Positions 1-30,045 are shown, numbered from the stretch's first letter. The stretch is DNA of 32,000 nucleotides from Candidatus Absconditicoccus praedator (GCF_021057185.1 NZ_CP054059.1:840001-872000), one strand, 5' to 3'. Numbers and translations are program-made. The notes: generated from the letters alone by a model not told the origin.

Positions 1-1
1 A

Positions 2-961
2 GATAGTGTAGATATATCTTGGATATTTGATGAGTATTGAGAAAAATATATCCAACAAAACATATATTTACAAGATGGTAGTGTATTGTCAAATAGTTTG
101 AGTTTGTTTGTCCAAGAATCTTGACTTTGAGTCTCTCCTTTTCAAATACAGTCAGATTTGGTGTTGTCTACATTTTCATCAAATGTGTTTTCTCTTGATT
201 TTGAAAATATTGATTATGATTATATAGATAAAATTAGGTGGGATTTTTGAGACAAAAATACTATAGTAGATGAAGATATATCAGAGGAAAGTATGGAAAT
301 AGAATATTGATATAATTTATGATGAAATTATGATTTGAAAGTTTTTGTATACACACAATCTTGAGATGTTTTAACAAGTTCAATAAATTTGTATGTGCAA
401 TGACAAGATTTTTGTGATGGTGATGTATCTCAACTAAGTTGTGATATGAGTGGTGATGGAGTGCCTGATTTATGTAGTAATGATATTTCTGGTGATTGAT
501 TTGAGAATGTAGATAATCTTATTGTGTCTGAGCCTGAAGAAAGAGATGATGATGGGAATTGTGTATATGAAGAAGAACATATAAATATTAATGCACTCAA
601 ACAACAAGCTGAAATGGCAAATAATTTCCAAGAATATGATGTTTGTCCTTTTGATGACAATCCAAATCAGACTCATTGAGTAGGTGATTGAATAGGAGAT
701 GAATGTAGGTGGTTGGCTGATATGTTGGATGATGTAGAAGAAAACTTTCATGAACCAGATTTCAACAATGAATTATATATAGATACTGTAAATGTATTGT
801 CTTGTCCTGCTCATTATGCAGACTTTGAGTCAACATTATGGAGGTGAGATACTATAAGAGCTGTGTTGTATGATCAAGATTTGGAGAAAGTTTATTCGGT
901 TTCCAATCTATTTGATTTGGATGAAGATGTAGGTGTATTGGCTCCAGATGTGTCTCCATAA
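2..961 (+). CDS. C-terminal 319 aa of a large secreted/surface protein with thrombospondin type-3-like Ca-binding Asp repeats (5' end outside window)
   Basis: Frame is open from the window edge to TAA 959-961 only if TGA is sense. Motifs DMSGDGVPDLCSNDISGDG and CPFDDNPNQTHGVGDGIGDEC. Third codon positions are A/T-biased. Confidence 0.6.
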
Positions 962-1058
962 TATACTATGAAAAAAATAAATTTTTTTTATTTGCTTATT
1001 TAAGTAGATATCCTAATCTTATTTTCATTTAATTTGTCGTAAAATATATCAAAAAAGT

Positions 1059-1086
1059 TTGACATTTATATTTTTTTTGATATAAT
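1059..1086 (+). promoter_or_regulatory. sigma70-like promoter candidate (TTGACA, 16 nt spacer, TGaTATAAT extended -10)
   Basis: ttgaca at 1059-1064 and tataat at 1081-1086 preceded by tg, about 40 nt upstream of ATG 1127. Such hexamers occur by chance in AT-rich DNA. Confidence 0.35.
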
Positions 1087-1126
1087 TTTGTTGGTATGAA
1101 ATACATTTATAAATAAAAACAAAAAA

Positions 1127-3649
1127 ATGAGATATGTATTTATAATAATATTCGTATTTGTTTTTTGGGGTTGATTGGTTAATGCAGAATGGGTGCATAA
1201 GTGAAATGTATGAAGTAATGGTAGATGTGGTGCTTGAGAATTGGTTCAAGTATATTGATGACCATCATCTTGAACTAGATCTCACGAGCGAGGTGATGGT
1301 ACTACTATATGATGGAATGGTACTAGATATAGGCAGATAAATTGACCATGAAATACAAGTGCATCATGTTTAGAGTGGCAACCAGATACAAGTACAAATG
1401 ATTTTGATGTTACTCTTGACTGAGTAGACTGAACAAGTTCTGAAAATTGGGTCTTAGCAAATGAGCTTACTGTAGAAATTTCTTATGATGAAGATTCTGT
1501 TTGTTGACCTGCTTGATGTAATTCAATTGATATTAGCTGGGAATTTCATAACAGTGATGGTTCTGGTTCTACAACAATAACTTCAACAAGTCATAGTTTT
1601 AGTGTTGATTTGACTGATTTATGAGGTGCAAATGAGCAGGAATTTGAATTGTCAATTGATAATATTGACACTAATGCTACTTCTAATCATAGTCAGAATG
1701 TAAGGTATGACTGGCGAGTATTTGCAAATGAGCCAGTAACTCCACATTTTTCTAATGACTTTTATGATACAAGAGTTGGTAATGATAGTGATAATTTTAG
1801 GTGACGTATAAGATTAAGAGATGAACATGGAAATTATGTAGTACCAGTTCAGAGAATAAATAGAGAAGTAAGAGTAAATTTTGGGTACGATAATCATGTG
1901 TATTTACAACAATATAAAAAAGATTGGGAAGATGACTTGAGTTGAGGAGATAGTTGAATAAGATACCAAAGAACTGCTGATTCAAGCTATAGTAAATTTG
2001 ATATATGAAATTGAAATAATATAAATTATACCTATGATTATAGTGATGGAATATCTGATTGAGTGTATGATGTTGATATTAAATCCTATGTGCCTACATA
2101 TGATTGATATGATTTGGCAAATTGAACATTTTCTGTAGAAGAGTTTAGTTATCAAGTAACTGATAATATGGGTAATAATTGGAGTAATTCAGATAGTAGT
2201 GCTGAAACAAATTTATCATTTGAGCCTAGGTCAAAAGTAAGTGAAATTGACTGACTTCCACCAATGGCCAATGAGGATGGTGAACAAGATTTTGAAGTGG
2301 AGCTTGATAATGCATCTTCTGAATTTATGATAAAATATGATCCTGATTGAGAGCCTATTGATACATATATAGACTGAAATGAATATTGTGTTACTACATA
2401 TTGATTTGATAGTGATGCTTTTGACTGAGATAGTGATTGTAATGAAATTTTGTCTTCATCTACTAGATATGATTTTACACAGTGGTTTGAAAGACATTCT
2501 GGAGAAACCCTTGATCCTGGTGAATTTGGTTATATATCTACTCATTTTGGGTATGATTATGGTGGTGGTGTGTATGCTACCTGGAACTCAGAATTGATAT
2601 GAAGAACAAATTATAATTATAATCCAGAAGAAAGAGATTTGGCTATGCAGTCTGCTATGTGAGTAGAAGGTGCTATCTCTGCAGAAGATTTTGATGCTTT
2701 GAATGAAATATATACTGATGATGAAAGACATTCTCATTGATGACTTTCTAGGTCGGAATTAAGAAACCAAGTAAGAAAATCAGTATGAGGAATGAAGTGA
2801 GGTATAGATGGGAATTCTTGAGGTGGATCAGTAAGTTTATGAAATAGTAGTACATCAGAAAGATACCAGAATACATATGTTCATTTTTTTGATGATGATA
2901 TTTATATAGATTCTAGTAATGTGAATGAGCAAAATTTAGTAGCAACTGAATGATGAGATGTTTTTATAAAGGATAATATTAGAGCAAGTGATGATTGATT
3001 GCTTTGAATAGTTTCATTGATGGATGATGATTATAACTGATGAAGTATATATATACATAAAGATGTTACTCATATAGATGCTTTCTTGTATGCGGAAAAA
3101 GGTGTTTCTACTTATAAGTGAGACTGGGATGATCCTGAATTTAATTTGACGCAGCATGAGCGTAGGCATCAATTATACATAGAAGGAAGTTTATGGTCTT
3201 TCAATACAATGTGATGATCTACAAGAGACGAGCCCGAGTGTCCTTATTTTGTACAATTAGATGATACTGAAACATGTGACACAGAAACTTCAAGAAAATA
3301 TGATTTGGAATTTCTTAGAAGAACATATCTTGTAAGTGCAGATGCATATTGAGCAGATAGTTATGAGTCATTTATCCCATATTATGATGAAAACGAGTGA
3401 TGACCAGCTGAGCTTATTTGAGGTATTGAGTGTGAGGTTTCTGGTGATGTTGTTGAATGTACTCGTACTTCTTGAGAACCAATTTTAGAGGATGATGAAT
3501 GGCAGTGAAGTGATCCTTTTGAGTGTGATCAGTGATGAGGAGCTTGTGATTTAGAAGACTTTATTCATAAGCTATCTCCTATATACCTAAGATATGATAA
3601 TAGAGTTACAGAAAAATGACTTCCTATTTTTTCAGAAGTTGTTAATTAA
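1127..3649 (+). CDS. 840-aa secreted hypothetical protein (N-terminal signal-like segment, Asp/Gly/Asn-rich, several Cys pairs)
   Basis: ATG 1127 to TAA 3647-3649, length divisible by 3, many in-frame TGA and no TAA/TAG. N-terminus MRYVFIIIFVFVFWGGLVNA. No catalytic motif recognised. Confidence 0.7.
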
Positions 3650-3757
3650 GTTGCTTATTTTTAAAATGTAAAGCAATTTTAGATAAAATACTTGCTCTTA
3701 ATGTTGTCTGTATTGTTTGTATTGATTGTGTTAATATTTGCTTATATCAAAATTAGC

Positions 3758-3785
3758 TTGAAAAGGAAATCAAAAAAAATATAAT
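3758..3785 (+). promoter_or_regulatory. sigma70-like promoter candidate for the hxs-type operon (TTGAAA, 16 nt spacer, TATAAT)
   Basis: ttgaaa at 3758-3763 and tataat at 3780-3785, about 50 nt upstream of ATG 3836, at the start of a 12-kb same-strand gene block. Confidence 0.3.
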
Positions 3786-3835
3786 TTATTTAGGTAAAAT
3801 TTAAGTTTGTTTATATTTTAATATAATCATGTGTT

Positions 3836-4030
3836 ATGTGAGAATTTAAATTAGATAGGGGTATATATACGAAGAAAATATTGGAAAAGTCTATTAAGGA
3901 ATTTGAAGATTATTGCTGAAAGAAAATAGATTATGATGAAAATAAAACTGAATTTACTTTGAAGTGTGAAGAAGATGATTTTGTTGATATAGTAGATAAT
4001 TATATTTATTTGTATAATGAAGCTAATTAG
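3836..4030 (+). CDS. 64-aa protein, truncated paralog of the N-terminal half of the downstream HxsD-like protein
   Basis: ATG 3836 to TAG 4028-4030. LDRGIYTKKILEKSIKEFEDY...DDFVDIVDNY aligns with VDGKIFDKKTILRAAYELVDK...DGIVDSF of the next gene. Stop lies 1 nt before the next ATG. Confidence 0.45.
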
Positions 4031-4031
4031 A

Positions 4032-4562
4032 ATGGAAAATTTTGTTAAAAAAATAGAAAAATGAACATTTAATTTTGAAATGGTAGTAGATTGAAAAATC
4101 TTTGATAAAAAGACTATATTAAGAGCTGCATATGAGCTTGTAGATAAAGTGTATATGTTTTTTAAGAAAGATGGGGATGATTTTGTTGTTCAGTTCAAGC
4201 TTAAAGATGAAAAACTAGATATGGATGGTATTGTAGATTCTTTTTGAGAAGAGTTGGTGTTTCATGATTTGAGGTCTCAGATAGATAAAAAAACAGGTAA
4301 AATGAAGGAAAGAATTATGGAAACAGCTTTAGGTTATGGTTTAACGTTAGAGGATGTTAAGTTAGATCTAGAAAAACTTCTTCCTTGATCGAACCCTTGA
4401 TCTCTTGATTGATGAGATGAGTGAGATCAAAAACAAAAGTCTATTGATGAAATAATGAAAGAAATAGAAAGTGATCCTGATTTTGAGGATGATAAAGATG
4501 AGATTTTGTGAATACTTAAGGAAATAGAAGAAGATGAGATGGAAAATAAAAAAGAAGGATAA
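4032..4562 (+). CDS. hxsD: HxsD-like His-Xaa-Ser system protein (176 aa) with acidic C-terminal tail
   Basis: ATG 4032 to TAA 4560-4562. Segment EELVFHDLRSQIDKKTGKMKERIMETALG resembles, from memory, the LLNDYxLRE signature region of the HxsD family (TIGR03976). Lies directly upstream of the HxsB-like and HxsA-like genes. Confidence 0.55.
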
Positions 4563-4591
4563 TTATTTACATTTATATAATCTTATTGGTG

Positions 4592-6010
4592 ATGGAAAAA
4601 ATCAATCTAAAAAATAAAAAAATATTGCCATTTAAATTTAAAAAACTAAAAAGTTGAAAATATTTTTTGAGTAATGATTTTTGACAATGGTTAATATTGT
4701 CTGAAAGAGAATTTAATGATTTTATTGATTGAAAAACTTCTTCTGAATTGGAAGATAGGTTGGTTTCAGCTGGTATGCAAAAATCAAGTAGATTAGATAA
4801 AAATGATGAAATGTATATTAAATATCTTGCTTGAAAATGGTTGAATAGATATCATTATATAATGCAATGACCAAGCTTGCATATAATAGTATTAACGTTA
4901 GCATGTAATCATTCTTGTAAATACTGTCATGCTAGTGCTAAAATCGATGATTCATGAAAATATCATTTATCAAATGAAAAGATAAAAAAGACTATAGATG
5001 TGATATTTAATACAACTGCATGAGCTATAGATATAGAATTTCAGTGATGAGAACCAACTGCTAATTGGGAAGGTTTGAAGTATGCTGTTGAATATATTCA
5101 TGAAAAAAACAAAGTGTATAATCTAAAAGTAAATATAAACTTAGTTTCAAATCTTACAATGATTGATGATGAGAAGATGAACTTTTTGTTAGATAATTGA
5201 GTAGATATTTCTACTAGTATAGATTGACCAAAAGAAGTTCATGATTGGAATAGAGCTTGGATAGGTGATACAAGTAGTTTTGAGACTGTTTCAAAGTGGG
5301 TTAAAAAAATTAATTTTGAGTATGAGAAAAGGTGACTTGAGAAAAAAGTATGAGCTATATGTACAGTTACAAATAAGCTTCTTGATAAACCACAAGAACT
5401 AGTAGATACTTATATAAGTTTATGACTAGATAATATATTTGTAAGACCTTTAAATCCTTATGGTATGGCTACGAAACTATGGGATAGTATAGGATATAAT
5501 TATGAAGAATACTGGAGCTTTTATGAAAAAATGTTAGATTATATAGAAAATAAGCAAGAAAAATGAATAAATATATCTGATACATACTCTCATAAAATAC
5601 ATTGTTGAAACTTAAGATCATCTAAAAGAATAAATTATATGGAAGAGAGGAGTCCTTGTGGTGCTGTGCTTGGTCAGGTAGCCTATAACTGGGATTGAGG
5701 AATATATACATGTGATGAATGAAGAATGCTAGCTCAAACTTGAGATTGTTCATTTAAGATATGAGAAATTGATAATAGATCTGCTGAAGAAATATATAAA
5801 TCTATGGTTTTAGATGTTGTAACAAAGGTTATGTTGTCTGCAAGTATTATAGACTATCTTCCTGGTTATGACACCAATCCAGTAAGTAATTATATATGAA
5901 CTTGCCCTATATACAGTTATACAATTAGTTGAAATATTAATAGTAAGTACAAAAAAGAAGATAGGTTTAAGCTTCAAGAAGATACTCTTGAAAGACTTGT
6001 AGATCAATAA
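4592..6010 (+). CDS. hxsB: HxsB-like radical SAM maturase with C-terminal Cys-rich (SPASM-like) region, 472 aa
   Basis: Read codon by codon from ATG 4592 to TAA 6008-6010 with no TAA/TAG. Motifs CNHSCKYC and QGGEPT (tga tga gaa cca). C-terminal CGAVLGQVAYNWDGGIYTCDEGR...GDC...GTCPIY. Immediately precedes the His-Xaa-Ser repeat gene. Confidence 0.75.
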
Positions 6011-6035
6011 TTTTTAAATATTAAAAATAATTTAA

Positions 6036-6500
6036 ATGATACATAAGAAAAAAAATATTAACTCAATGGTTAGACATGAAGATCAAAAGGTTTCTGGTAA
6101 AAAAACAAATTTACCTTTATATGTTTGAGCTTTGTTTGCTGCAGGAGCGTCTTCTGCATGAGTGTCTTCAGAGGAAAATATTAGTAAATATTTTGAAATA
6201 GAGTCTGCTTATGCTTTTAATTATGGTGTTAGTAATGATAGTAATACCCATCATACAGATACTGATGATAGCTGATTTGATAATGTTGAGGTTGAAATAG
6301 ATCAAAAAACTTTTACTATTGATAAAAATGTGAATGGGCATATTAGTTGATCTATAGATACAAGAAATTATGTAGGCTTATCTCATTGAAGTCATGGTAG
6401 TCATGCTAGTCATTGAAGTCATTGAAGTCACTGAAGTCACTGAAGTCATTGAAGTCACTGAAGTCACTGAAGTCACTGAAGTCACTGAAGTAGGTGGTAA
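6036..6500 (+). CDS. hxsA: HxsA-like His-Xaa-Ser repeat precursor protein, 154 aa
   Basis: ATG 6036 (alternative ATG 6066) to TAA 6498-6500. Hydrophobic N-terminal segment LPLYVGALFAAGASSAGVSS. C-terminus LSHGSHGSHASHGSHGSHGSHGSHGSHGSHGSHGSHGSRW. Confidence 0.85.
6381..6488 (+). repeat. 12 tandem 9-bp units (ag/tc)t-ca(t/c)-(tga/ggt/gct) encoding Ser-His-Gly/Ala
   Basis: Direct reading: tct cat tga, agt cat ggt, agt cat gct, then nine copies of agt ca[tc] tga. Lies inside the hxsA-like CDS. Confidence 0.95.
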
Positions 6501-6527
6501 TTTTTTTAAAATTTAAGTATAATATTA

Positions 6528-7970
6528 ATGTTTACAAATAAAGTGTTTGTTATGTTTTTTTCTTTAATATTATTCTTTTTTCTTGTAATATTTGTTTATT
6601 ATTTCTTAGTTAATGATAGGTCTATACATGAAAGTGATGGAGAATCTGCTTTGAATCAAGATGATGATAGAATTGAATTAGATGAGGAAAATGAAGAGGA
6701 AAATGAAGAGGAAAATGAAGAGGAAGAAGATTATGTAGAAAGTGTTGAGAATGCTCTAGGTTCAGATTATCTTGAAAGAGAAAGAGAACAATTTTGAGAA
6801 GATTTTAATAAAAATAGGCCTTTGACAGATGAAGAAATAGAAGAAACAAAAAAAATACTAGTAGAAGAGTATTGAGTTGATTTAGATGAACACAATAATA
6901 TAGAAGAACTTATAAAAGAAAATTATGAGCAAATTACTGTCGAATGAGGATTTGAAGTTGGTCGTGATTTGTCTAGTTCTGAAAGAGAACTTATAATATC
7001 TATTTTAGAGGATCATGAAGAAGCTTGAGATATACCAAATTTATCAAATCAACAAAAAGAAAATTTTGCTTATTGGATGGAAGTGGAAGATTTTCGTTAT
7101 TTTGTTAATAATCCTATTTATTATTTAAAAAAGTTTTTTAATGAACATGAAGATATAGATCATGATTCTGTTGAGCTAGAATTAAGAAATTTTATAAATG
7201 AACAAATAAATAAATGAACTTTCCCTAAAATGTCTAATAAAGAAATTAATAATTTTGTATCTTATATAGAACCTAATGATAAAGAAAATTTTATGAAAAA
7301 CCCTGAAAAATATATTGATGAATTTATTAGTGAGCAAAAAAGAAGTAGAGATTATGTTATGTCAAGCTGAGAGTATAAATTATGGAAGATGTTTTTAAGT
7401 TGAAATTCAGATGAAGCATTTGAAAAATTAAATAAGACTGCCGAAGAAGAATGATATAGAACTGATATATATGCAAAAATATTTAAAATATACAGTGACT
7501 ATATTTTTGGAACAAATTATTTTGAGTCAGAAGAAAAAGAAAGATTTTTTAGTTGTTTATCAACTTGAACTTATAATGAATCATTTGATGATGAAGTATT
7601 AGATAAGATTTGTGAATGAAAAGATGAAATTATATATTATGATGATGATTGAGAAGTTTTTGTTAACTATTGATTTGTTAATTATACACTTAATTATTTA
7701 AAAGAATTAAATGATTGAAATGAAGACAAATTAACTGAAATTTTGAATACTAATTATAATCATAACAACTTAAAAAGTAGTACATGAGAGAATTATGATC
7801 ATTGAAAAAAAATTTTATATTATTTAGTTTGAAAAGTAATTATTTGATATGATATAGATGTTATAAAAAATGATTATGATGAAATAGAACATTCTTTGGA
7901 AAATAACTGAGATTGTGAACAGATAAGTGATTCTAATTTAAAAAATTATTGTGAAAATATTTTTTATTAA
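6528..7970 (+). CDS. 480-aa membrane-anchored, highly acidic protein of unknown function
   Basis: Start matches track ORF 6528-6797. Read through in-frame TGAs line by line to TAA 7968-7970. N-terminal TM helix FVMFFSLILFFFLVIFVYYFLV, then EENEEENEEENEEEE. C-terminal module is paralogous to CDS 17773-18600. Confidence 0.7.
6684..6719 (+). repeat. 3 perfect tandem copies of 12-bp gaggaaaatgaa (EENE) plus a degenerate fourth unit
   Basis: Direct reading of gaggaaaatgaa x3 followed by gaggaagaagat, inside CDS 6528-7970. Confidence 0.9.
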
Positions 7971-7988
7971 TTCTTTTAATTGATTATT

Positions 7989-9074
7989 ATGCTAAAGAAA
8001 TATTATTGACCCTCGACTGAACGATGAAATTTAAAAGAAATAATTGTATGAGATGTAGAAAACTTTAACTTAAAAAATATTGAAGAAACATTTAAAGTTT
8101 TGTTTTGAGAAAATTTGAGGCATAGTACTTTTGAAAATTTTAAAGATTACCGTGTTGATTCACAAAAAATTAAAGAAAGACAGGAAGATTTAGATAATCT
8201 ATCAGAGCTTTTGAAAAAGCTTTGAGTGAAAGTTTATAGACCTGAAAGATTAGAAAGGGTAAAGGCTTTCAGAGGCCCATATTTTAAAGGTGTGATGTCA
8301 TCTGCTGCCAATCCTAGAGATTTGATTTTTGTTTATAAGGATAAAATTATAGAAAGCACTCCGTGAGGGGTGAACAGATATTTTGAAAAAGATTTATATT
8401 ATAAGATATTACAGGAAAAATTTGAAGAAGGAGCAGTATGGCTTTCTGCTCCAAGTCCTTCTTTTAGAAAAGGTCGTTTTGATTTTAAGGAATGGGATGA
8501 AAAAAGAGATTTTAAAAATTTTGATAGGTTAAAATATGATATAGTTTTTGAGGCAGCACATATGTTAAAATTGTGAGATGATATATTGTTTAATATATCA
8601 AGTTATATGCATGAGTTGTGAGCTGATTGGATGCAAAAAGTTTTGTGAAGCGATACAAGAATACATAAGGTTTATTACTTAGATGACAATCATATTGATT
8701 GAAAATTATCAGCTCTTAGTAGATGAATATTTTTGGCAAACAATGAATTAATGCAAAAAGATATTAAAAATTATTTGCCCAAGAAATTTCATGATTGGAA
8801 AGTAATTTATACCTGAGAAGAATCTGGGAAGTTTAATCATAACTCTTATTTGGATACTGATATGAACTATATTCAGCTTTGTAGTATGAGATGAGCAAAT
8901 ACTAATGTTTTGTCTATAAGTGAAAACAGAGTATTGGTTATGGATTATGCAGAAAAAACTATTAAAAAGCTGGAAGAAAATGGTTTTGATGTAATTCCAG
9001 TTAGAATGAGACATTGTGAATTGTTTGGGGGATGATTACATTGTGCTACTTTGGATTTAAAAAGAGAAGATTAA
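7989..9074 (+). CDS. Amidinotransferase-family enzyme (AGAT / StrB1-like guanidino-group transferase), 361 aa
   Basis: ATG 7989 to TAA 9072-9074, in frame with track ORF 8370-8576. Motifs ANPRDLIFVYKDKIIESTPGGVNRYFE...GAVWLSAPSPSF, DDNHIDG, and C-terminal FGGGLHCATLDLKRED, which matches the catalytic-Cys end of glycine / inosamine-phosphate amidinotransferases. Confidence 0.85.
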
Positions 9075-9079
9075 TATTG

Positions 9080-10012
9080 ATGGATAGACCTTTATTATTT
9101 GAAATAGTTATAACAAATTGATGTAATAAAAGATGTCCTTATTGTGATATTAATTTTGAAAGATGATTTATAAAAAATGAAGTTGTTGATAATTTCATTA
9201 AATCTATAAGAAATTATGATTGAGAGTTAGGGTGAATTCATATCAATTTTTTTTGATGAGAGCCTTTGTTGTGAAAACAACATATTGATCATGTTTTAAA
9301 ATCATTAGAAGAAATAAAAACAAAAATAACATATAGTTTGGTTACAAATTGATGGTTAATAGATGATTTTATTATAGAAAGAATATACAAATATGATATT
9401 AAAGTAGATATTAGTATAGATACTATAAATAATGATGTTTTGAAAGAAAATAAACATATAAAAGAGATTGCAAGCAGAGAAAAGACAAGTGTTAATTATA
9501 TATTTGTTCCTTGACAAATGAGTAATATTGAGGAAACAGCTGCTGTTATGAATGGTATCTGATTTGAAAATATTAATATAATACCAGTATATACTACTAT
9601 GAGTTGGAACAATGAAAATATAAAAATATTAGCAAAAAAAATTAATCAGTTTATCAAAATAAGTAAATCCAAAAATATATGATATTTTAAGTATGATAGA
9701 TGATTTTCCAGAGAAAGACAGTTTATATTAGATGTGTGAGGAGAAATATATCAGGATGTAGATAGTGATATTCGGCTTCAAAAGCAATATAATATTATTC
9801 CTGAATTTCTTAAAAAAAAGGTAGAAAATGAAATGTATCTATGAAATATAAACTATCAGAATTTAAATGAGATTATATGTTGATATGATGAGAGCGTTAT
9901 ATACAATTTGCTAAAAGAATTCGAACTTGAAATTTGAAAACAAAAAGAATATAAGAAAATAGATAAGATAATAGATTATTTTAGTATAATGACCAAAGCT
10001 AAGGATAGATAA
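9080..10012 (+). CDS. Radical SAM protein, 310 aa
   Basis: ATG 9080 to TAA 10010-10012. Motifs CNKRCPYC and FFGGEPLL (tga tga gag cct). Confidence 0.85.
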
Positions 10013-10039
10013 AATAATGTTTATTTTTTAAATTTAATT

Positions 10040-10927
10040 ATGAAAAAAAAAACTTCGGAAGTTACTACAGTTACCAGATGAATAGAAGTTGAACTAACAA
10101 GTATATGTTCTCTTAACTGTGAATTTTGTATTAAAAGTTATAGAACAGAGTTTGGTAACATGGATTTTGATACTTTTTCTAAAGTTGTAGATTTTATAAA
10201 ATTTCTTTGATGTATGGAAGTGGATATATCGTGAGTTGGTGATATTTTTCAAAATGATTCTTTGTATGAGTTTATAGATCATTTATTTGAAAAACTTCCT
10301 AATATAGATGCAGTTATTCCTACTAAATGACAGGATGTAACAATGGAAGATCTTAAAAAAATAAAAAGTTATAATGATAAAGGGTATAATATTACATTGA
10401 TGGCATCTGTAATATACTTAACTAAATGGAAATTTGATAAGTTTGTTGGTAGAAATCAATATGAAAAATTTGTTAAGTTTATAGATATGTTGAGGGATTC
10501 AGGAGTTAACTTTTCTCGAGAATTTGTGATACTAAAGAATAATTTGGATGATTTTGAGAAATTTAAAAAATTAGCTGAAAAAATAGGAAAAGAGTATGGA
10601 ACCTTGTTGGCATATAATTTTTGATGAAATCTTTCAGATGAAATTCATAAAAAATATTTTGATGAAGAAATTTTGAGAGATTATTTTGAATATAGGTCAA
10701 AGGAAGATGTATGTGAGGTGATGAAATATGATCATTTTTTTGTAGATTATAAAGGAGATGTATATATTTGTGCTAATATGGGTATAAATCCAGATGCATT
10801 GCTTTGAAATATAAATGATGTTTATCATGATTTTAATATTTTGTTAGAAAGAAAACAAGAATTTAGAAAAAAATATCATGATATTTGTAATAAATGTTTC
10901 TTTTATAAATATAAACTTCATGATTAA
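10040..10927 (+). CDS. Radical SAM protein with C-terminal Cys motifs, 295 aa
   Basis: ATG 10040 to TAA 10925-10927, in frame with track ORF 10343-10624. CSLNCEFC, then later CEV...GDVYICANMG...CNKC. Confidence 0.8.
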
Positions 10928-10929
10928 AA

Positions 10930-12303
10930 ATGATAACTCATACTTTTTATGCTTTAGTCTTATATCAGGCCCAAATATTATACAATCAAGATCTTTGAAA
11001 TGGTTACTTTCTTTTTGATATAAAAGAAAAAACTATGTGAAAAATAATTGTGGAGTTTAAAAAATGAAATAAAAAGAAAGGTATTTTATTTGTGCATAAA
11101 GATTTTAATACTGACAGAGTAGACTATCAAACAAATAATTGGTTTATTGTGTGAGAAAAGAGTTTGGTAGAATTTGTTTGAAAGAAAATATTAGATAATG
11201 AGCATGAAGATTTTAATTTTTTTAAGACATCTGAAGAATATATATGAAAAATATTTTGAGTGGTGCTTACAATAACAACTCATTGTAATCTGGCTTGCTA
11301 TTATTGTTTCAACGATTATGATTATAATTTAGATCAAAGAAACTTTATAAAACCTTTAACTTTTGAACAAATAAAGTGAATAGTTGATGATTTGTATAAA
11401 AATTGATGTAGAGATATTATAATTTCATGATGAGAACCCTTATTGCATTACGATTTTTTTAATATAATTGACTATTGTTTAAATAAGTGAATATATGTTC
11501 GTGTAAATACTAATTGAGATCTCTTGAATTCTAGAATAGTAGATAAAATAATTCAGTATCCTATAAACTTGATGGTTTCAATACACGAATTTAATGAAAA
11601 AGATTATGCATATACAAATGTTAGATGATTCAGTGAAATTTATAAAAAAGATGTGCCAGAAGAAGTTTTTTATAAAAAGTTTAGAAATAAAATAGAAAAT
11701 TTAAAAATAATATATAAATATCCTAATATTAATTTAGAGTTTATGACTATACTTGATAATAAAAATATTATAAACCTAGAAAAAATATATGATTTTTGCT
11801 TGAATCAATTTTGAATAACACAGTGGCATTTTTTTAGGCTATATAGTACAAAAATTTCTAAATGAATTTCAAAATGAATGATGTCACTTGCTATAAGAAA
11901 ATTGTACAATCTTAATAAAAAATATAATGTTGATTATAAAATAGTTGATGCAGTTCCTTTTTGTGTTACTAGAAAAACAGATTTGGCAGAAAAAGTAATT
12001 GAATGAGAATTAGCAGATAATCATAATGTAAAATTTATTATTACCAATGAATGAGGTTTTCAATTGATGTCATGATTTGATACTGTTGTTTGAAGTGTAT
12101 TTGAAGAATCTATTTCAGAACTTTTGAGTAAAGAATTTACTCAAAAGATGCTAAATAATTGATTTCTTCCAAATGAATGTTTGGATTGTGTGTATAAAAA
12201 TCATTGCAAGGGTGGAAGTAGAATGGAAGCACATATAGCTACCTGAAGCTATGCTGATTTTGATCCTTTATGAAAAATAGCAAATAAAAAATGTCAGATA
12301 TAA
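10930..12303 (+). CDS. Radical SAM protein with about 105-aa N-terminal extension and C-terminal C-x2-C-x5-C-x-G motif, 457 aa
   Basis: ATG 10930 (2 nt after the previous stop) to TAA 12301-12303. Motifs CNLACYYC, SGGEPLL (tga tga gaa ccc) and CLDCVYKNHCKGG. Confidence 0.85.
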
Positions 12304-20953: not shown

Positions 20954-21044
20954 AATATTGATTTGTTATAAATTAAATCTCTCTAGACAATATTTAATTT
21001 ATAATATTTTCTTATGCCTAATTTTCAACAATTTTGTTAACTAT

Positions 21045-21077
21045 CCACCTTAAATACTGGTCCAGAGATTGGGTCCA
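21045..21077. repeat. IS terminal inverted repeat (orfA-proximal end)
   Basis: Reverse complement reads tggacccaatctctggaccagtatttaaggtgg. Confidence 0.7.
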
Positions 21078-21079
21078 TT

Positions 21080-21427: not shown

Positions 21428-21521
21428 ATATAATTGTTTTTTTATTTTACTAAAATATTCTTGAATTAAACTATAAAAAACTTAGTATATTAGTATAATT
21501 TTAATTTAAAATATTTTGCTT

Positions 21522-22766
21522 ATGACTATAATTTCTTCTGAAAATAGAGTATGGGTAAGGATAAGTAATTCTTGTATAAGTTCTTGTATATTTTGTTTGG
21601 ATTCAGACAATTTAAAACAAAAAAGTTTTGTAGAAGATAAAATAATAAAGTATGAGTTAGAGAAGTCATATAAAAAATGATATAAAAATAAGGCTATAAT
21701 CTCTGGGTGAGAAGCTAGTATTAATCCTAAATTTATTGATTATATAAAATATGCAAGGGATGTTTGATATACAAAGATACAGACAATAACAAATTGATAT
21801 AAGTTTTGAAGTGAAAGTTTTACAAAAAAATGTATAGATAACTGACTTGATGAAATAACTTTTTCACTTCACTGACATACTCCTGAACTTCATGATAGCC
21901 TTACCTGATTAAAATGAGCTTTTAAAAATATTATAAAAGCAATTTATTATATAAGGAATAATCATCCAGAAACTATAATAAATTGTGATATTATTATTTG
22001 TAAACCTAATGTAGGTTATGCATATAAAATAGTGCAGTTATTGAAAAGGTTGCAAGTTTTTGAGTATGATATACTACAGATTGTCCCTCAGGCTTTAGCA
22101 TGGGAAAATAGAGGTGATTTGTTGTTTGATGATATATATAATCACAAAGAAAGTTTACACAAACTATGGAAAGAGTCTGAAGACAAAAGAGTACATATGC
22201 GAGCTAATAGGGTGTTTCCATGACTTTTAGAGTGATTTGAGGATATGATTCAATCTCCAGAAAAAATGTCAGATGAAGTTCTTAATGAGGCTAAGAAGGA
22301 GTGGGAAAGAGTCTTTAAAAAAAGAAAATTGCCTGAGTGTAGAGATGAAATTAGGTGTGCAAATTGTTATATGAATTGGTTTTGTGATAACCTAAATGAG
22401 TTCTATTTTTCTTCAAATAAAAAAAATAAAAAAGAAAAACTTTTCTCACATAGAAGTATTGATAAAATAAATGAAATTTATCCAGCTGATATTGTTAATT
22501 TTAAATGAGAAGTATTTGGTAGGGATGTTTTAAATCTTCCATACTGTTTATCTTGAAAAAATAATTCATTTACAAATTTTAATGATTATTTGCTAGAACA
22601 TAAAATACAAGCAAACATAGTTAATTTTACTAATTGGTTTATGGATGAATGATTTAGAATAAAATCAACTTGATGTAAAGAATGTAAACTATATAATTCT
22701 TGTAAGTGAATTCATATAAATTTTATAAAAAAATACTGATTTAAAATACTTAATCCAATTAAATAA
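21522..22766 (+). CDS. Radical SAM protein with C-terminal C-x2-C-x5-C-x-G motif, 414 aa
   Basis: ATG 21522 to TAA 22764-22766, in frame with track ORFs 22032-22223 and 22245-22508. Motifs CISSCIFC, SGGEAS, CRDEIRCANC and CKECKLYNSCKG. Confidence 0.8.
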
Positions 22767-22769
22767 TAA

Positions 22770-23822
22770 ATGGTTCAATATATAAATGAGATAATAAGAA
22801 CAAATTATAAGTGTAATCGAAAATGTAAGTTTTGTAATGTACTAAAAACAAATAATTATTGAGTTGTAGATGTTTCTGATTGAGAAGTTATAAATAAAAT
22901 TTTAGAAATTGCTAGAAAATATAATGAAGATCAATTAAAGTATGTAACAATTTCCTTTTCATGATGAGAACCTTTAATGAATAAAAATTTAGAAAAATAC
23001 ATAAAACTAGCAAAAAAAATATGAATATGAACTGTAGAAATACAAACTAATTGAATATTGTTAATCAATAATAAGTTTAAAATTAATAAACTATATGATG
23101 CTTGATTGGATGAAATTTTTATAGCACAACATAGCCATAAAAATGATGTAAATTATAGTTTATGATGCTTTTTGGACACAAAAAAACTAGAGGAGCGAGT
23201 TTTCTATGTTAAAAAAAATAATATTTATACACATGAGAAAAATCAACATTGAGTTTCAATTTATTTAAATATTGTTATTACAAAAATTAACTTGCCCTAT
23301 TTAAAAGAATTTTTATTATATCTAAAAAAAATATGATTTATTGATTTAATAGAACCTAGGCATCATTTTGATTGAAACTGAAATTTGGAAAAGGTGACAA
23401 GGAAAATATCTTTATGATTTGTTCAGCCTCATTGATATGCTTGGGAATATTGAAAAGAGGTATTGCTCGATTTTAATGATGAACAAAAAAGATATATAGA
23501 GGAACTAATAAATTACTGTGAAGAAAATGATTTGTTGCCGGATATTCATTTTGTGGGTCCTCCTCTTTGCTTGATGTATTATCCCAAGTATAATTTAGAA
23601 TATAACAGGTTGAAGAAAATAGAGGAAGATAAAAAAAAGTGACTTCAAAACGATGAAAATATCGACACATTCAGAGTTTTACAGAAAGAAAAAAGTAAAC
23701 TTAAAGAGTGTGAAAGATGCAAATATAACAAATTTTGCTTATGAATATACAAGGCACGATTAGAGTTTTTTGGAGAAGAATATGCTAGGAAAAAAATTAA
23801 TGAATTTATAAAAAAACAGTAA
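22770..23822 (+). CDS. Radical SAM protein, 350 aa; paralog of CDS 18638-19588
   Basis: ATG 22770 to TAA 23820-23822. Motifs CNRKCKFC, SGGEPLM, QHSH, GYAWEYGKEVLLDF and CERCKYNKFCLG. Confidence 0.8.
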
Positions 23823-23826
23823 TATA

Positions 23827-24789
23827 ATGAATATTTGATATTTACAAATAACTAGAATATGTAATCATAAATGTATATTTTGTTCTAACCCTTCAAATGG
23901 TAATTTTTTATCTTTATCTGAAATAGAAGATTCAGTTAAAATACTAAAAAAAGAATGATTTAATTCTATTATAATAACATGATGAGAGCCTACTATTCAT
24001 CCAAATTTTATTGATGTTGTAAATATTATTAAAAATAATTGAATTGAAGCTAGAGTAATAACTAATGGGTACCTATTTTCAAAAACTGAAAATGTAAAAC
24101 AAATTAAAGATGCATGAATAAATATTGTTCATTTATCGGTTTATACATATAAAAAAGAGTTAAACGATAAAATTAGAGAGTATCCTTGAGCATTTGATCA
24201 AATGGTTAAAGCTATTATAAATTTAAAAAAGTATTGAATTACTACTCAAATAACTTCTGTAATTACAAAATATAATCAAGATCATTTGGATAAAACAGTA
24301 AAATTTATTAAAAAACTAAATCCAAATATATCACATTTTGTTCGAAATGTTATGGATCCTGAAATGATGCCAAAAAAATGAAAAGATAAAAAAGATGAAA
24401 TATTACCTGACCTGGAAAAGGCTGGTAATAGCTTGGTTCAAATATTTAAATATTTAGAAAGTATATGAAATACTTTTAGGGTTGAAAAAATGCCACTTTG
24501 TTTCATACCTTGATATGAGTGGGCTAATACTGAATGTAGAAAGATAGTAAAAGATGAAAAAAGATATGTTCGTTTTTTGGACTTTAGAGAAAAAATTAAT
24601 GAGTCTTGAAGAGATTTTCAACATTGATTGCTTGATGATTGTAAAAATTGTATATTAAATGAAATATGTTGATGAGTATATGAAAATAAAAAACGATATA
24701 ATTATATAAATGTGAAACCCAAATGAATTGATTATAAAGGCAATTTAGAAAAGATAATTTTAAAGATAAAATGAAAAACAAAAGGATAG
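23827..24789 (+). CDS. Radical SAM protein, 320 aa
   Basis: ATG 23827 to TAG 24787-24789. Motifs CNHKCIFCSNPS, TGGEPT and CKNCILNEICGG. Confidence 0.8.
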
Positions 24790-25679
24790 AGATACCGTTG
24801 TGATGGAAGTGTAATGAAAGGTGTTTTTTTTGTAGTGAAACAGAGTTGATAGAATATCATAAGTGAAAGTCATTAAGTTTTGAGTATTTTTATAAGTTGC
24901 TAATTTCTTATTATAAAGAAGGTTATAATCATTTAACAATAGTATGATGAGAACCAACTATAGAGAAAAACTTTATGAAAGCAATAAAGTTAGCAAAAAA
25001 ATTATGAATGTGAGTGCAGATATCAACTAACTGATTAAGGTTTGAGGATGAGGTTTTTAGTAAAGAGGCAATGAAGTATATAGACCGAATAACATTATCA
25101 GTTCATACAATAGAAGATGATTTATTTAAAAAGATTACACAAACGAATATAGATTGATGGAAAAGTAGGCTTGAAAAGATATTAAAAAATATTTGAAAAT
25201 ATAAAGATAATCATGAAATAAGAATAAATTATGTGTTAACAAATTACAATATAGAGCATTTAAAAATATTAGACACTATAAATTATATAGAGAAAAATTT
25301 GCCTAATTACACATCTTTTGTACTAACTTATCCGGATATTACAGTTATAGAATCTGGAGAATTAACAAAAAAAATTAAAGTTAAAAAAGATGATTTATTT
25401 TCTTCTTTAGAAATACTTTATGAAAAACTTTCATCTGACCAAACTAGGAAATTGGTATTGGCAGATATGCCATTTTGTTTTGTTCCAGAGGAATTACATG
25501 GGAATTTACAAGATAATTTTATGGCATTAGATAGTATATCAAAAATATTTATAAAGGATGAAAAAAAGAAGCATGATAGGAATAAAGTAGACCCTAGGTG
25601 AAGATTTAAAGCAAATCAATGTAATAATTGTAAGTATTCTCATACATGTTTTTGATTTCCTAACATATTTGAGTTTTAA
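24771..25679 (+). CDS. Radical SAM protein, 302 aa
   Basis: ATG 24771 overlaps the upstream gene by 19 nt; TAA 25677-25679. In frame with track ORF 25233-25601. Motifs CNERCFFC, VGGEPT and CNNCKYSHTCFG. Confidence 0.8.
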
Positions 25680-28984: not shown

Positions 28985-29151
28985 ACTAAACCTATCAAAT
29001 AAAAAATCATGTCATGGATTTATCAATTTTTTTATTATTCTTCTTTTTTTTTCAATAGAATTCATGTAGAGTAAATAAAATCTAAAAAGTTCTTGAAAAA
29101 ATATTATTTTTTTATAAACTTAATTCAAGTTTATTTTGATATAAATATTGA

Positions 29152-30045
29152 ATGAAAAGAGCTGATATAAAGGTTTGATTTTCTTGTAATAATTTTTGTG
29201 AATTTTGTGTGCAGTGAGATAAAAGGTTTTTGTTTAAGCCACGTTCATTAGAAAAAATAAAAGAAATCACAAAGCATGAATATGATAATTGATGTAGGGA
29301 AGCAGTTTTTACTTGATGAGAGCCAACTGTTCATCCGAAACTTGTGGAGGCGGTTTCATACGCAAGTAGTATCTGATATAAAGAAATACAAATACAATCA
29401 AATTGAACAAATTTTGATGACATTAATTATTGTAAAAGTCTTATTAATGCTTGAGTGACACAGTTTTGACCTTCTATTCATTGAGCTAATCCATCTACTC
29501 ATGATGATTTGGTTAAAACTAAATGAGCCTGGAAAAGGGTTGTAAAATGAGTACATAATCTAAAAAGATTAAGACAAGCTATAATATTTAACATTGTTGT
29601 TACTAAGAAAAATTATAGAGAATTACCTAAGCTTTCAAAAATACTGTGTGAACTGTGAGTTTCTCAACTTCAATTTGCTTTTGTTCATATATTATGATCT
29701 GCTGATAAAAATAAAGTAAAGATTGTTCCTAAAAAGACTGATGTGATGCCATATATAAAAAAATGAATAGATATATGAAATCTCTATAAAATTCCAGTTT
29801 TTACAGAAGCTATTCCATATTGTCTGATGCAGTGATATGAGTATGCAATAGCAGAGAATATAATGCCAGAAACAACAGTTATTGATGCTGAACATACTAC
29901 AGAAAGTTATAAGGATTATAGAGTTGCTGAATGAAAAGTAAAGGTTGAAAAATGTAAGACTTGTAAATACTTTAAGTATTGTGAGTGACCCTGGAAGGAA
30001 TATCCTGAAATATATTGATGGGATGAGTTTGAGCCAATTAAATAA
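29152..30045 (+). CDS. Radical SAM protein with C-terminal C-x2-C-x5-C-x-G motif, 297 aa
   Basis: ATG 29152 to TAA 30043-30045. Motifs CNNFCEFC, TGGEPT and CKTCKYFKYCEGPW. Confidence 0.8.

What the first reader, a model, noticed from the sequence alone, without database searches (positions are those of the whole stretch)
6381..6488. Precursor C-terminus: 12 tandem Ser-His-Gly units whose Gly is written almost entirely with the recoded UGA codon
The last 39 residues are (S-H-G)2 S-H-A (S-H-G)9 S-R-W, encoded by a 9-bp DNA repeat agt-ca[tc]-tga. Ten of the 12 Xaa positions are TGA, one is GGT and one is GCT. The presumed substrate motif of the maturases therefore depends on UGA decoding: under the standard code the protein would stop after the first His of the repeat. 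The near-perfect nucleotide repeat suggests recent expansion or contraction, so unit number may vary between strains. A regularly spaced His/Ser array could serve as a metal-binding or cross-linking scaffold. That last point is speculation.
Basis: partly seen in the sequence, partly recalled or inferred. Interest (0 to 1): 0.8.

Follow-up and report, generated by a model that had tools for sequence, protein, structure and literature searches.

The report
Known His-Xaa-Ser repeat protein, UGA-coded glycine
The 12 Ser-His-Gly units are real, but they are the hallmark tail of an already catalogued His-Xaa-Ser repeat protein (HxsA) beside its HxsD/HxsB partners, and writing Gly as UGA is simply this bacterium's normal habit.

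Summary
Window 6381-6488 holds 12 in-frame 9-bp units, (SHG)2-SHA-(SHG)9, followed by SRW and a stop. Ten Xaa codons are TGA, one is GGT and one is GCT.

The window comes from Candidatus Absconditicoccus praedator, which uses genetic code 25. TGA means Gly: 19 of 22 TGA positions in the NifH-like gene align with Gly in a solved NifH structure. TGA supplies 75% of all Gly codons in the window, so its dominance in the repeat is not special. Orthologues write the same Gly as GGT or GGG.

The ORF (6036-6500, 154 aa) is an HxsA-type His-Xaa-Ser repeat protein. It sits directly after hxsD and hxsB, and both score above their NCBIfam cut-offs. No canonical hxsC is present, only weak HxsC-like paralogues further downstream. 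There is no peptidoglycan-binding domain.

Orthologues at the same position carry 4 to 33 units. Across 28 family members Xaa is G (61%), A (18%) or S (15%).

An independent assembly is identical up to unit 7 and stops there, so the count of 12 is not independently verified.

One side result deserves follow-up. This Hxs variant is embedded in a conserved multi-radical-SAM cluster. Here and in an Elusimicrobia genome that cluster includes a nitrogenase-like pair matching a published 'group VI' description.

The parts
3836..4030 (+). Conserved 64-aa small ORF upstream of hxsD (GenBank UFX83286.1, 'hypothetical protein'). Homologues of 56-69 aa accompany hxsD/hxsB in every related locus examined.
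   Evidence: The comparison with HxsD was inconclusive (hhalign probability 3.9%). The best sigma-70-like site (11 of 12 matches) lies at 3758-3785, but such sites are not enriched over shuffled sequence.
4017..4562 (+). hxsD (181 aa)
   Evidence: TIGR03976 scores 54 bits against a cut-off of 50. The identical Logan contig carries a PF27806 HxsD hit. NCBI names UFX83287.1 'His-Xaa-Ser system protein HxsD'.
4586..6010 (+). hxsB, a radical SAM/SPASM maturase (472 aa from the ATG at 4592; CNHSCKYC cluster motif)
   Evidence: TIGR03978 scores 413.8 bits against a cut-off of 370. NCBI names UFX83288.1 HxsB. There are 3000 homologues with E <= 1e-30, many named HxsB in Gracilibacteria and other candidate-phyla-radiation groups.
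6036..6500 (+). HxsA-type His-Xaa-Ser repeat protein, 154 aa under code 25, with 14 in-frame TGA codons
   Evidence: (NF038313 HxsA4 56.7 bits against a cut-off of 55, repeat region only).
6036..6164 (+). N-terminal basic segment (residues 1-24, 7 K/R) followed by an uncharged hydrophobic segment (residues 25-43). I infer a signal peptide or membrane anchor plus a leader.
   Evidence: Composition analysis. Leader similarity to the HxsA4 'KKDIKxFLxSEEGKI' motif is only suggestive (hhalign probability 38.8%, E = 3e-4 over 22 columns).
6327..6347 (+). Conserved 'NVNGHIS' motif (residues 98-104) just before the array. N100, G101 and S104 are invariant in six code-25 orthologues.
6381..6488 (+). 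The reported array: 12 units of 9 bp, S-H-(G/A), with Xaa written as 10 TGA, 1 GGT and 1 GCT
6489..6500 (+). C-terminal Ser-Arg-Trp plus TAA stop. A terminal Trp (HG[SQ]W or SRW) recurs in the family.
23827..24789 (+). Closest match to HxsC in the window (320 aa), but far below the family cut-off
   Evidence: TIGR03977 scores 120.5 bits against a cut-off of 267.9.
29152..30045 (+). HxsC4-like radical SAM protein (297 aa), directly upstream of the NifH-like gene. Its orthologue holds the same position in an Elusimicrobia locus.
   Evidence: NF038332 scores 140.7 bits against a cut-off of 500. It is 66% identical to a gene in L241 and 29% identical to the gene adjacent to nifH-like in L242.
21516..25679 (+). 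Run of four HxsC/HxsC4-like radical SAM paralogues: 21516-22766, 22770-23822, 23827-24789 and 24771-25679
   Evidence: Orthologous families sit next to HxsA in L239 and L197.

Best explanation
ORF 6036-6500 is the HxsA-type repeat protein of a His-Xaa-Ser (Hxs) system in Candidatus Absconditicoccus praedator, a code-25 bacterium. The 12 S-H-G units are the HxS array that defines this protein family. They are not a UGA-specific device.

Shown:
- TGA means Gly and is the majority Gly codon in this window.
- The ORF lies 25 bp downstream of hxsB, on the same strand as hxsD and hxsB. Both genes score above their curated cut-offs.
- Orthologous small proteins with the same layout (basic N-terminus, hydrophobic segment, 'VNGH(Y/I)S' motif, HxS array) occupy the same position in related genomes.
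- The array length and the Gly codon used vary between these orthologues.

Inferred:
- The 9-bp unit expands and contracts in frame by slippage or unequal recombination, carrying whichever codons the founder unit had.
- HxsB with HxsD covalently modifies His/Ser residues of the array before or during export. One or more of the HxsC-like radical SAM paralogues further downstream probably take part.
- The basic-plus-hydrophobic N-terminus sends the product to the cell envelope or outside.

Biological role: I rate a lineage-specific, heavily modified envelope or secreted product as more likely than a copy of the E. coli antiphage DNA-entry barrier. This variant lacks the peptidoglycan-binding domain, basic Xaa residues and a canonical HxsC. 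It also sits in a conserved chromosomal multi-radical-SAM cluster.
For: - Code 25: 19 of 22 TGA positions of the NifH-like ORF align to Gly in PDB 6nzj and none to Trp. Motifs such as 'YgKggIgKST' and 'ggEP' need Gly at TGA. The organism was identified by a 100% match to UFX83311.1.
- Family assignment: HxsB 413.8 bits against 370, HxsD 54 against 50, HxsA4 56.7 against 55. NCBI names the two neighbouring genes HxsD and HxsB.
- Orthologues with HxS arrays sit directly after hxsB in L122, L125, L127, L148/L155, L197, L239, L240, L242 and L243.
- Array length runs from 4 to 33 units. Xaa is G/A/S at 61/18/15%.
- Each array is dominated by one Gly codon type regardless of the locus-wide TGA share. 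That fits amplification of a founder unit. CAC is enriched in the array.
- No terminator-like site occurs between 3600 and 8200.
- Precedent for radical-SAM maturation of an HxS motif comes from E. coli: a +8 Da modification on SHRSS, N-terminal processing and export all require HxsB, HxsC and HxsD (PMC13128918).
- A multi-radical-SAM neighbourhood is conserved in Gracilibacteria, Omnitrophota and Elusimicrobia.
Against: - No HxsC reaches its cut-off. The best is 120.5 bits against 267.9, about 17 kb away. In E. coli the HxsC-HxsD complex is thought to install the modification.
- The HxsA4 match rests only on the repeat. The first 115 residues match no NCBIfam or Pfam family, and leader homology is only suggestive.
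- There is no biochemical evidence for any modification, export or cleavage in this organism.
- An IS3 transposase (19774-20736) interrupts the downstream radical SAM suite, so some of those genes may not be co-expressed.
- The unit count of 12 is unverified.
Confidence: 0.72

Rival explanations
1. The protein has the same role as in E. coli HXS. The matured HxsA sits in the envelope and blocks phage DNA entry, making this an antiphage defence effector.
For: It is the only experimentally characterised function for an HxsA/B/D system (PMC13128918). HxsB and HxsD here pass the equivalog cut-offs. The N-terminus looks export-competent.
Against: - There is no peptidoglycan-binding domain.
- The array has no basic Xaa residues, and the portion downstream of the hydrophobic segment is acidic (14 D/E against 5 K/R, pI 5.8). 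The electrostatic DNA-binding model therefore fits poorly.
- Canonical HxsC is absent and the gene order is D-B-A rather than D-B-C-A.
- In related genomes the module lies between ATP-synthase or ribosomal genes and a large radical SAM suite, not in a defence island.
- The 2023 PADLOC library gave only generic viperin-like radical SAM hits and none for HxsA or HxsD. This is neutral, because the library has no HXS models.
Confidence: 0.2
2. The tail is an unmodified His-rich metal-binding segment for Ni, Zn, Co or Cu capture or delivery. The neighbouring radical SAM genes act on something else.
For: There are twelve regularly spaced His residues. Metallo-enzyme genes (NifH-like, HemN-like, many Fe-S radical SAM proteins) lie in the same window.
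Against: Ser is as conserved as His across the family, which simple metal chelation does not require. The tight, conserved synteny with HxsB and HxsD and the E. coli precedent of modification within an HxS motif both point to a substrate role.
Confidence: 0.08
3. (Gly-Ser-His)n is a short collagen-like Gly-X-Y triple helix.
For: Gly falls at every third residue in 11 of 12 units. There are weak hits to Pfam Collagen and to Scl1/Scl2 models.
Against: Pfam Collagen scores 21.2 bits against a gathering score of 27.2. Xaa is Ala or Ser in a third of family units, and L159 has a long run of SHS units (its array has 33 SHx units in all). That is incompatible with an obligatory Gly. Twelve triplets is also short for a stable helix.
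Confidence: 0.02
4. The array is not a genuine coding feature. It could be an assembly artefact, a non-coding microsatellite, or a region read in another frame or under another code (TGA as Trp or stop).
For: An independent k-mer assembly breaks inside the array. Under table 11 the repeat yields short (VTE)n, (SLK)n and minus-strand (MTS)n ORFs. Logan gene calls translated TGA as Trp.
Against: The first seven units are reproduced exactly by the independent assembly. Orthologues in at least nine other loci carry HxS arrays in the same frame and position, some written entirely with GGN. TGA aligns with Gly and never with Trp in NifH. GenBank accession numbering leaves two protein slots between HxsB and orf7, which fits this ORF and orf6 both being annotated.
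Confidence: 0.02

Closest known systems
E. coli HXS antiphage system, HxsA/B/C/D (Li et al., Nat Commun 2026, PMC13128918; families first defined by Haft & Basu as TIGR03976-TIGR03979)
   Same: Both have a small HxsD, a radical SAM/SPASM HxsB, and an exported protein with tandem His-Xaa-Ser units encoded next to them. In both, HxsB and HxsD match the same equivalog models.
   Different: [quoted passage not shown] This protein is 154 aa with no recognisable domain and 12 C-terminal units with Gly or Ala as Xaa. Its portion downstream of the hydrophobic segment is acidic.
- The canonical gene order is D-B-C-A in 99.6% of systems. Here it is (64-aa ORF)-D-B-A with no canonical HxsC.
- The paper reports 99.7% of systems in Pseudomonadota. 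This one is in Absconditabacteria.
HxsA4/HxsC4 variant of the His-Xaa-Ser system (NCBIfam NF038313 and NF038332), for example the Omnitrophota HxsA4 P0019 and the Elusimicrobia RBG_16_66_12 locus L242
   Same: Both have (S-H-G/A/S)n arrays that end in a Trp. Both have a basic-plus-hydrophobic N-terminus, an HxsD-(about 65 aa)-HxsB-HxsA order, and many radical SAM genes downstream. A profile of this family finds 996 cluster representatives at E <= 1e-3.
   Different: The hallmark leader 'FLxSEEGKI' is only faintly recognisable here. An acidic insert of about 70 residues with an 'NVNGHIS' motif separates the leader from the array. No gene reaches the HxsC4 cut-off. Gly is written as TGA.
'Group VI' nitrogenase paralogue clusters with radical SAM suites (Meheust et al. 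2020, bioRxiv 10.1101/765248)
   Same: The window's right end carries a NifH-like gene (30067-30894), a NifD/K-like gene (30822 onward), a HemN-like gene and about a dozen radical SAM genes. The nearest NifH homologues are from Gracilibacteria, then Elusimicrobia and Myxococcales, which are the taxa named in that paper.
   Different: The searches run here turned up no mention of Hxs or His-Xaa-Ser in that paper. Here and in L242 an HxsD-HxsB-HxsA module is part of, or adjacent to, the same gene run.
Bacterial collagen-like proteins (Scl1/Scl2; Pfam PF01391)
   Same: Gly recurs with a period of three residues.
   Different: Scores are below threshold. In this family His and Ser are the conserved residues, not Gly.

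Membership tests
His-Xaa-Ser (HXS) system, canonical | HxsA: a protein with tandem His-Xaa-Ser repeats | tested here: met
   There are 12 consecutive units with His at period 3 and Ser at +2.
His-Xaa-Ser (HXS) system, canonical | HxsB radical SAM/SPASM maturase (TIGR03978) encoded alongside | tested here: met
   It scores 413.8 bits against a cut-off of 370 and its stop lies 25 bp upstream of the ORF. NCBI names it HxsB.
His-Xaa-Ser (HXS) system, canonical | HxsD (TIGR03976 / PF27806) | tested here: met
   It scores 54 bits against a cut-off of 50. PF27806 hits the product on the identical contig. NCBI names it HxsD.
His-Xaa-Ser (HXS) system, canonical | HxsC radical SAM (TIGR03977) adjacent to HxsB, with gene order D-B-C-A | tested here: not met
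   The best HxsC score in the window is 120.5 bits against 267.9, at 23827-24789. The order here is D-B-A. The canonical order comes from PMC13128918.
His-Xaa-Ser (HXS) system, canonical | HxsA carries a signal peptide and a peptidoglycan-binding domain | tested here: not met
   No Pfam domain was found other than a sub-threshold Collagen hit. A basic-plus-hydrophobic N-terminus is present, but no signal-peptide predictor was available.
His-Xaa-Ser (HXS) system, canonical | [quoted passage not shown] | not testable with these tools
   This needs mass spectrometry and phage assays. It has been shown only for E. coli.
HxsA4/HxsC4 variant (NCBIfam) | Score at or above the NF038313 cut-off | tested here: met
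   The score is 56.7 bits against 55, but only residues 113-152 (the repeat) match. Residues 1-115 alone match nothing.
HxsA4/HxsC4 variant (NCBIfam) | Leader motif KKxIKxFLxSEEGKI followed by a hydrophobic segment | tested here: inconclusive
   hhalign of the leader alignments gives probability 38.8% and E = 3.2e-4 over 22 columns. The hydrophobic segment is present.
HxsA4/HxsC4 variant (NCBIfam) | HxsC4 radical SAM (NF038332) above cut-off | tested here: not met
   The best score is 140.7 bits against 500 (orf 29152-30045). The gene that follows HxsA in the related locus L148 also scores only 81.9.
HxsA4/HxsC4 variant (NCBIfam) | Array ends with a Trp-containing tail | tested here: met
   The tail here is SRW. 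L148 and L155 have SRW; P0019, L197 and L242 have GQW; P0003 to P0015 have GSW.
Genetic code 25 (UGA = Gly) | In-frame TGA at conserved Gly positions of well-known proteins | tested here: met
   19 of 22 TGA positions align with Gly and none with Trp against NifH 6nzj. TGA accounts for 4.5% of codons, and Gly reaches only 6.1% when TGA is counted.
Genetic code 25 (UGA = Gly) | A tRNA-Gly with anticodon UCA | not testable with these tools
   There is no tRNA gene in the 32-kb window and the rest of the genome was not available.
Collagen-like Gly-X-Y proteins | Pfam PF01391 at or above the gathering score, with strict Gly at every third residue | tested here: not met
   The score is 21.2 bits against 27.2. 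Xaa is Gly in only 61% of family units.

The most novel reading that the evidence does not exclude
The (S-H-G)n protein may not be a phage-defence effector here. It may instead be the dedicated peptide substrate or scaffold of a conserved supercluster of 25-30 kb. That supercluster combines HxsD/HxsB, about a dozen radical SAM enzymes (HxsC-like, HemN-like and SPASM types), a U32-like protein, a methyltransferase and a nitrogenase-like NifH/NifDK pair matching the published 'group VI' description.

If so, the published prediction that these nitrogenase paralogues reduce a free tetrapyrrole would need revising towards a peptide-linked or peptide-derived product.

The link rests on four observations:
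- In Elusimicrobia L242, HxsD-HxsB-HxsA4-2 radical SAM-NifH-like-NifDK-like form one same-strand run.
- The same components lie in this window, about 22 kb apart, with an IS3 element between them.
- Orthologues of orf27 and orf13 flank the Nif-like genes in Gracilibacteria L241.
- Hxs plus a radical SAM suite recurs in L197, L239, L240 and L243.
Probability: 0.25. Interest if true: 0.75.

Novelty: new member of a known kind. Interest (0 to 1): 0.33.

Why it matters
As stated, the finding (Gly written as UGA in a repeat) is ordinary for a code-25 genome. The protein family is already catalogued, and the neighbouring genes are named HxsD and HxsB in GenBank.

What is worth keeping:
- HXS was characterised only in 2026 and reported as 99.7% Pseudomonadota. 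The data here show a large, divergent branch in candidate-phyla-radiation and allied lineages (Absconditabacteria, Gracilibacteria, Omnitrophota, Elusimicrobia). That branch lacks a canonical HxsC and a peptidoglycan-binding domain, and it has long neutral arrays.
- This branch is physically tied to large radical SAM suites and, in at least two genomes, to a nitrogenase-like pair matching the 'group VI' paralogues whose function is unknown. That gives a concrete candidate substrate to test.
- A cultivated organism (A. praedator with its Halorhodospira prey, as I recall from the original description) carries the cluster, so proteomics is feasible.

Tried and rejected
- The stricter 27-nt pattern on metagenome contigs gave 110 hits. 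Most were microsatellites at 45-65% GC. Only L148, L155, L159 and L197 (GC 17-25%) were true relatives.
- The NCBI versions P0265 and P0145 were not on record for context retrieval.
- Exact-sequence look-ups of ORF5 with four possible starts and with TGA read as Trp all failed, as did three variants of orf6. I could therefore not see how GenBank annotates UFX83289 and UFX83290.
- PADLOC (2023) has no HXS models and gave only generic viperin-like radical SAM similarity.
- No tRNA gene and no Rfam family were found in the window.
- The comparison of the 64-aa ORF family with HxsD was inconclusive.
- Alternative frames of the repeat, (VTE)n, (SLK)n and minus-strand (MTS)n of 26-40 aa, were rejected as by-products of the repeat.
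- No second HxS array exists in any frame of the window.

Full report
**1. The observation**

Window 6381-6488 consists of twelve 9-bp units. They read TCT CAT TGA, AGT CAT GGT, AGT CAT GCT, and then nine copies of AGT CA(T/C) TGA. AGT AGG TGG TAA follows at 6489-6500.

Tandem Repeats Finder reports a 9-bp period with 9.3 copies at 96% match (score 147), and a 27-bp super-period with score 160. The units are in frame with an ORF at 6036-6500 that is open only if TGA is read as a sense codon.

Two details need correcting. The first Ser codon is TCT. The ORF also contains four more in-frame TGA codons upstream, so under the standard code it would stop at codon 31 (table-11 ORF 6036..6128), not at the repeat.

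**2. The genetic code and the organism**

The window is about 25% GC. It resolves into 29 long ORFs only when TGA is a sense codon.

I masked the TGA positions of the NifH-like ORF (30067-30894) and aligned it to solved NifH structures. Of 22 masked positions, 19 fall on Gly in PDB 6nzj and none on Trp. These include all four glycines of the P-loop YGKGGIGKST. This is genetic code 25.

The same ORF is 100% identical to UFX83311.1 of Candidatus Absconditicoccus praedator (Absconditabacteria) on a 1,129,696-bp contig.

**3. Is UGA special in the repeat? No.**

In the other 28 ORFs, TGA supplies 443 of 593 Gly codons (74.7%). Ten TGA out of eleven Gly codons in the array is therefore expected (binomial P = 0.19 even if the units are treated as independent, which they are not).

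Orthologous arrays show no consistent preference:

| Locus | TGA among array Gly codons | TGA share of Gly codons in the locus |
|---|---|---|
| L122 | 0 of 18 | 55% |
| L239 | 0 of 7 | 57% |
| L127 | 2 of 6 | 54% |
| L148 | 7 of 7 | 74% |

Each array is dominated by one codon type. That is what amplification of a founder unit predicts. The window's array shows the same effect for His: CAC is 7 of 12 His codons there but only 10.6% elsewhere.

**4. What the gene is**

The NCBIfam scores are as follows.

| Gene | Coordinates | Model | Score (bits) | Cut-off |
|---|---|---|---|---|
| hxsD | 4017-4562 | TIGR03976 | 54 | 50 |
| hxsB | 4586-6010 | TIGR03978 | 413.8 | 370 |
| repeat ORF | 6036-6500 | NF038313 (HxsA4) | 56.7 | 55 |

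The last match covers the repeat region only. NCBI itself names the two upstream proteins HxsD (UFX83287.1) and HxsB (UFX83288.1).

GenBank accession numbering runs from UFX83288 (HxsB) to UFX83291 (orf7). That leaves two slots for this ORF and orf6, so the ORF is probably annotated. I could not retrieve it.

The repeat is thus the defining feature of the His-Xaa-Ser repeat protein family. S-H-G read one residue later is H-G-S.

**5. Orthologues**

HxsB homologues at 42-58% identity come from code-25 metagenome contigs and from NCBI Gracilibacteria genomes. In every locus inspected, a small ORF directly after hxsB has the same layout: a basic N-terminus, a hydrophobic segment, a 'VNGH(Y/I)S' motif, and then an array with His at every third residue.

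Array lengths are 4 units (L125), 7 (L148, L155, L197), 8 (L239), 9 (L127), 12 (this window), 22 (L122), 26 (L242) and 33 SHx units (L159). In L240 the array has decayed to (SG)n.

Standard-code members from Omnitrophota, Elusimicrobia and unbinned metagenomes carry 7-30 units and usually end in HG(S/Q)W. Over 28 proteins and 466 units, Xaa is G 61%, A 18% and S 15%. Ser is nearly invariant.

A profile of the family finds 996 cluster representatives at E <= 1e-3 and 125 at E <= 1e-10 among 1.84 billion proteins.

Homologues do not end before the repeat.

**6. Reliability of the count of 12**

A Logan assembly of run SRR15691272 is identical to window 1-6443 with 0 mismatches. The contig ends at 6443, after unit 7. 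This is typical of a short-k-mer assembler meeting a tandem repeat. The repeat itself is independently reproduced, but its full length is not.

**7. What is known about the system**

Li et al. (Nat Commun 2026, PMC13128918) showed that E. coli HxsA/B/C/D is an antiphage system. [quoted passage not shown] A +8 Da modification maps to an SHRSS motif in the last HxS unit. Each of the five units is essential. The mature protein is thought to block phage DNA entry through its basic repeats and a peptidoglycan-binding domain. They report the order D-B-C-A in 99.6% of systems and 99.7% of systems in Pseudomonadota.

**8. How this locus differs**

- No ORF reaches the HxsC or HxsC4 cut-off. The best HxsC score is 120.5 bits against 267.9 (23827-24789), and the best HxsC4 score is 140.7 against 500 (29152-30045).
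- The order is (64-aa ORF)-D-B-A.
- The protein has no Pfam domain. Collagen is sub-threshold at 21.2 bits against 27.2.
- Downstream of the hydrophobic segment it is acidic, with 14 D/E against 5 K/R.
- The array is at the extreme C-terminus, and Xaa is neutral.
- The HxsA4 leader motif is only faintly detectable (hhalign probability 38.8%).

For these reasons I file it as a divergent member of the HxsA family. I do not transfer the E. coli mechanism wholesale.

**9. Context**

The window contains about a dozen radical SAM genes. At least five have HxsC or HxsC4 as their best NCBIfam match. It also holds a HemN-like gene, a U32-like gene, a methyltransferase, PEP-utiliser-domain proteins, an IS3 transposase and a NifH-like/NifDK-like pair.

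The same families follow HxsA directly in Gracilibacteria L239 and in L197. L240 and Omnitrophota L243 also carry radical SAM genes after HxsA. In L239 and L240 the cluster lies next to ATP-synthase or ribosomal genes rather than in a defence island.

In Elusimicrobia RBG_16_66_12 (L242, standard code) the run is HxsD - HxsB - HxsA4 (146 aa, 26 units, GQW) - two radical SAM genes - NifH-like - NifDK-like - six radical SAM genes.

This appears to match the 'group VI nitrogenase paralogue plus radical SAM suite' that Meheust et al. (2020) described in Elusimicrobia, two Gracilibacteria and Myxococcales, and predicted to reduce a tetrapyrrole. The match rests on gene content and on the taxa of the nearest NifH homologues, since I ran no phylogeny. 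The searches run here turned up no mention of Hxs in that paper.

**10. Mechanism I consider most likely**

The ORF is a precursor-type protein. Its HxS array is the target of radical SAM chemistry by HxsB with HxsD, and probably by HxsC-like paralogues. Its basic-plus-hydrophobic N-terminus directs export or anchoring.

The array length drifts by in-frame slippage of the 9-bp unit. This changes the number of modifiable units without ever breaking the reading frame.

Shown: gene identities, synteny, the code, and repeat variation. Inferred: modification, export and biological role.

I give the E. coli-type antiphage role about 0.2, a plain metal-binding tail about 0.08, and a collagen-like helix or an artefact about 0.02 each.

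**11. Verdict**

The headline claim of a dependence on recoded UGA is an ordinary consequence of code 25. The family is already catalogued and annotated in neighbouring genes.

Novelty: a new member of a known kind. Interest is modest (0.33). The physical link between HxsA4-type proteins and the nitrogenase-like/radical SAM supercluster raises it somewhat and is worth a dedicated follow-up.

Noticed in passing
window 30067-30894 (+) and 30822-32000 (+, runs off the end): A NifH-like ATPase (269.9 bits to TIGR01287, below the 394 cut-off; 100% identical to UFX83311.1) is followed by a NifD/K-like ORF. The nearest NifH homologues are from Gracilibacteria, then Elusimicrobia and Myxococcales. This appears to match the 'group VI nitrogenase paralogue' clusters of Meheust et al. 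2020.
   Followed up: partly
L242 (Elusimicrobia RBG_16_66_12, GCA_001800005.1) 5295-12624: HxsD, HxsB, an HxsA4 protein (146 aa, 26 SHx units, ending GQW), two radical SAM genes, a NifH-like gene and a NifDK-like gene form one same-strand run in a standard-code genome. This is a direct physical link between the His-Xaa-Ser system and the nitrogenase-like paralogues. I did not find it described in the papers searched.
   Followed up: partly
window 9014-13993, 18638-19588 (-), 21516-26929, 27731-30045: About a dozen radical SAM genes lie in 32 kb of a 1.13-Mb genome. At least five have HxsC or HxsC4 as their best but sub-threshold NCBIfam match. One is HemN-like (27731-29065, minus strand). Orthologous sets follow HxsA in L239 and L197.
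   Followed up: partly
window 19774-20736 (-) with a possible orfA at 20639-20953 (-): An IS3-family transposase (NF033516, 289 bits against a cut-off of 160) is inserted in the middle of the radical SAM suite, next to a 780-bp gap without a long ORF (20737-21515).
   Followed up: no
window 3836-4030 (+): A conserved 64-aa ORF (UFX83286.1, 'hypothetical') ends in ...YNEAN. Homologues of 56-69 aa sit either upstream of hxsD or between hxsD and hxsB in every related locus. It may be a fifth component of this Hxs variant. Its similarity to HxsD was not significant.
   Followed up: partly
window 6528-7970 (+) and 17773-18600 (+): The ORF directly after the repeat protein (480 aa, with an N-terminal membrane segment and an acidic E/N-rich tract) has a paralogue 11 kb downstream (35% identity over 250 aa, E = 6e-47). 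Neither matches any Pfam or NCBIfam family.
   Followed up: partly
window 6684-6725 (+): A perfect 12-bp tandem repeat, GAGGAAAATGAA x 3.5, encodes (EENE)n inside the ORF that follows the HxS protein. It is a second in-frame repeat within 200 bp of the first.
   Followed up: no
window 7980-9074 (+): A 361-aa protein whose C-terminus matches the arginine deiminase / amidinotransferase fold (PF02274, 25.7 bits against 22.8). It lies between the HxS protein and the radical SAM run. The HxS protein ends in Ser-Arg-Trp, so a guanidino-modifying enzyme nearby may be relevant.
   Followed up: no
window 14222-14980 (+): A U32-family-like protein (PF01136, 25.9 bits against 22.4) has a Cys-rich C-terminus. 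It is 44% identical to a U32 protein in the nitrogenase-like cluster of Gracilibacteria L241.
   Followed up: no
Logan contig SRR15691272_1090 (L121), ending at window 6443: The public Logan gene calls for this organism translate TGA as Trp. P0025, for example, is HxsB with 22 Trp residues in place of Gly. Homology searches therefore return '95% identical' hits that are in fact the same gene.
   Followed up: yes
L240 (GCA_028713225.1) 11553-11930: In one Gracilibacteria orthologue the array has lost its histidines and reads HASHASSGSGSGSGSGSW. The family's array can therefore decay to a Ser-Gly repeat while hxsD and hxsB are retained.
   Followed up: no
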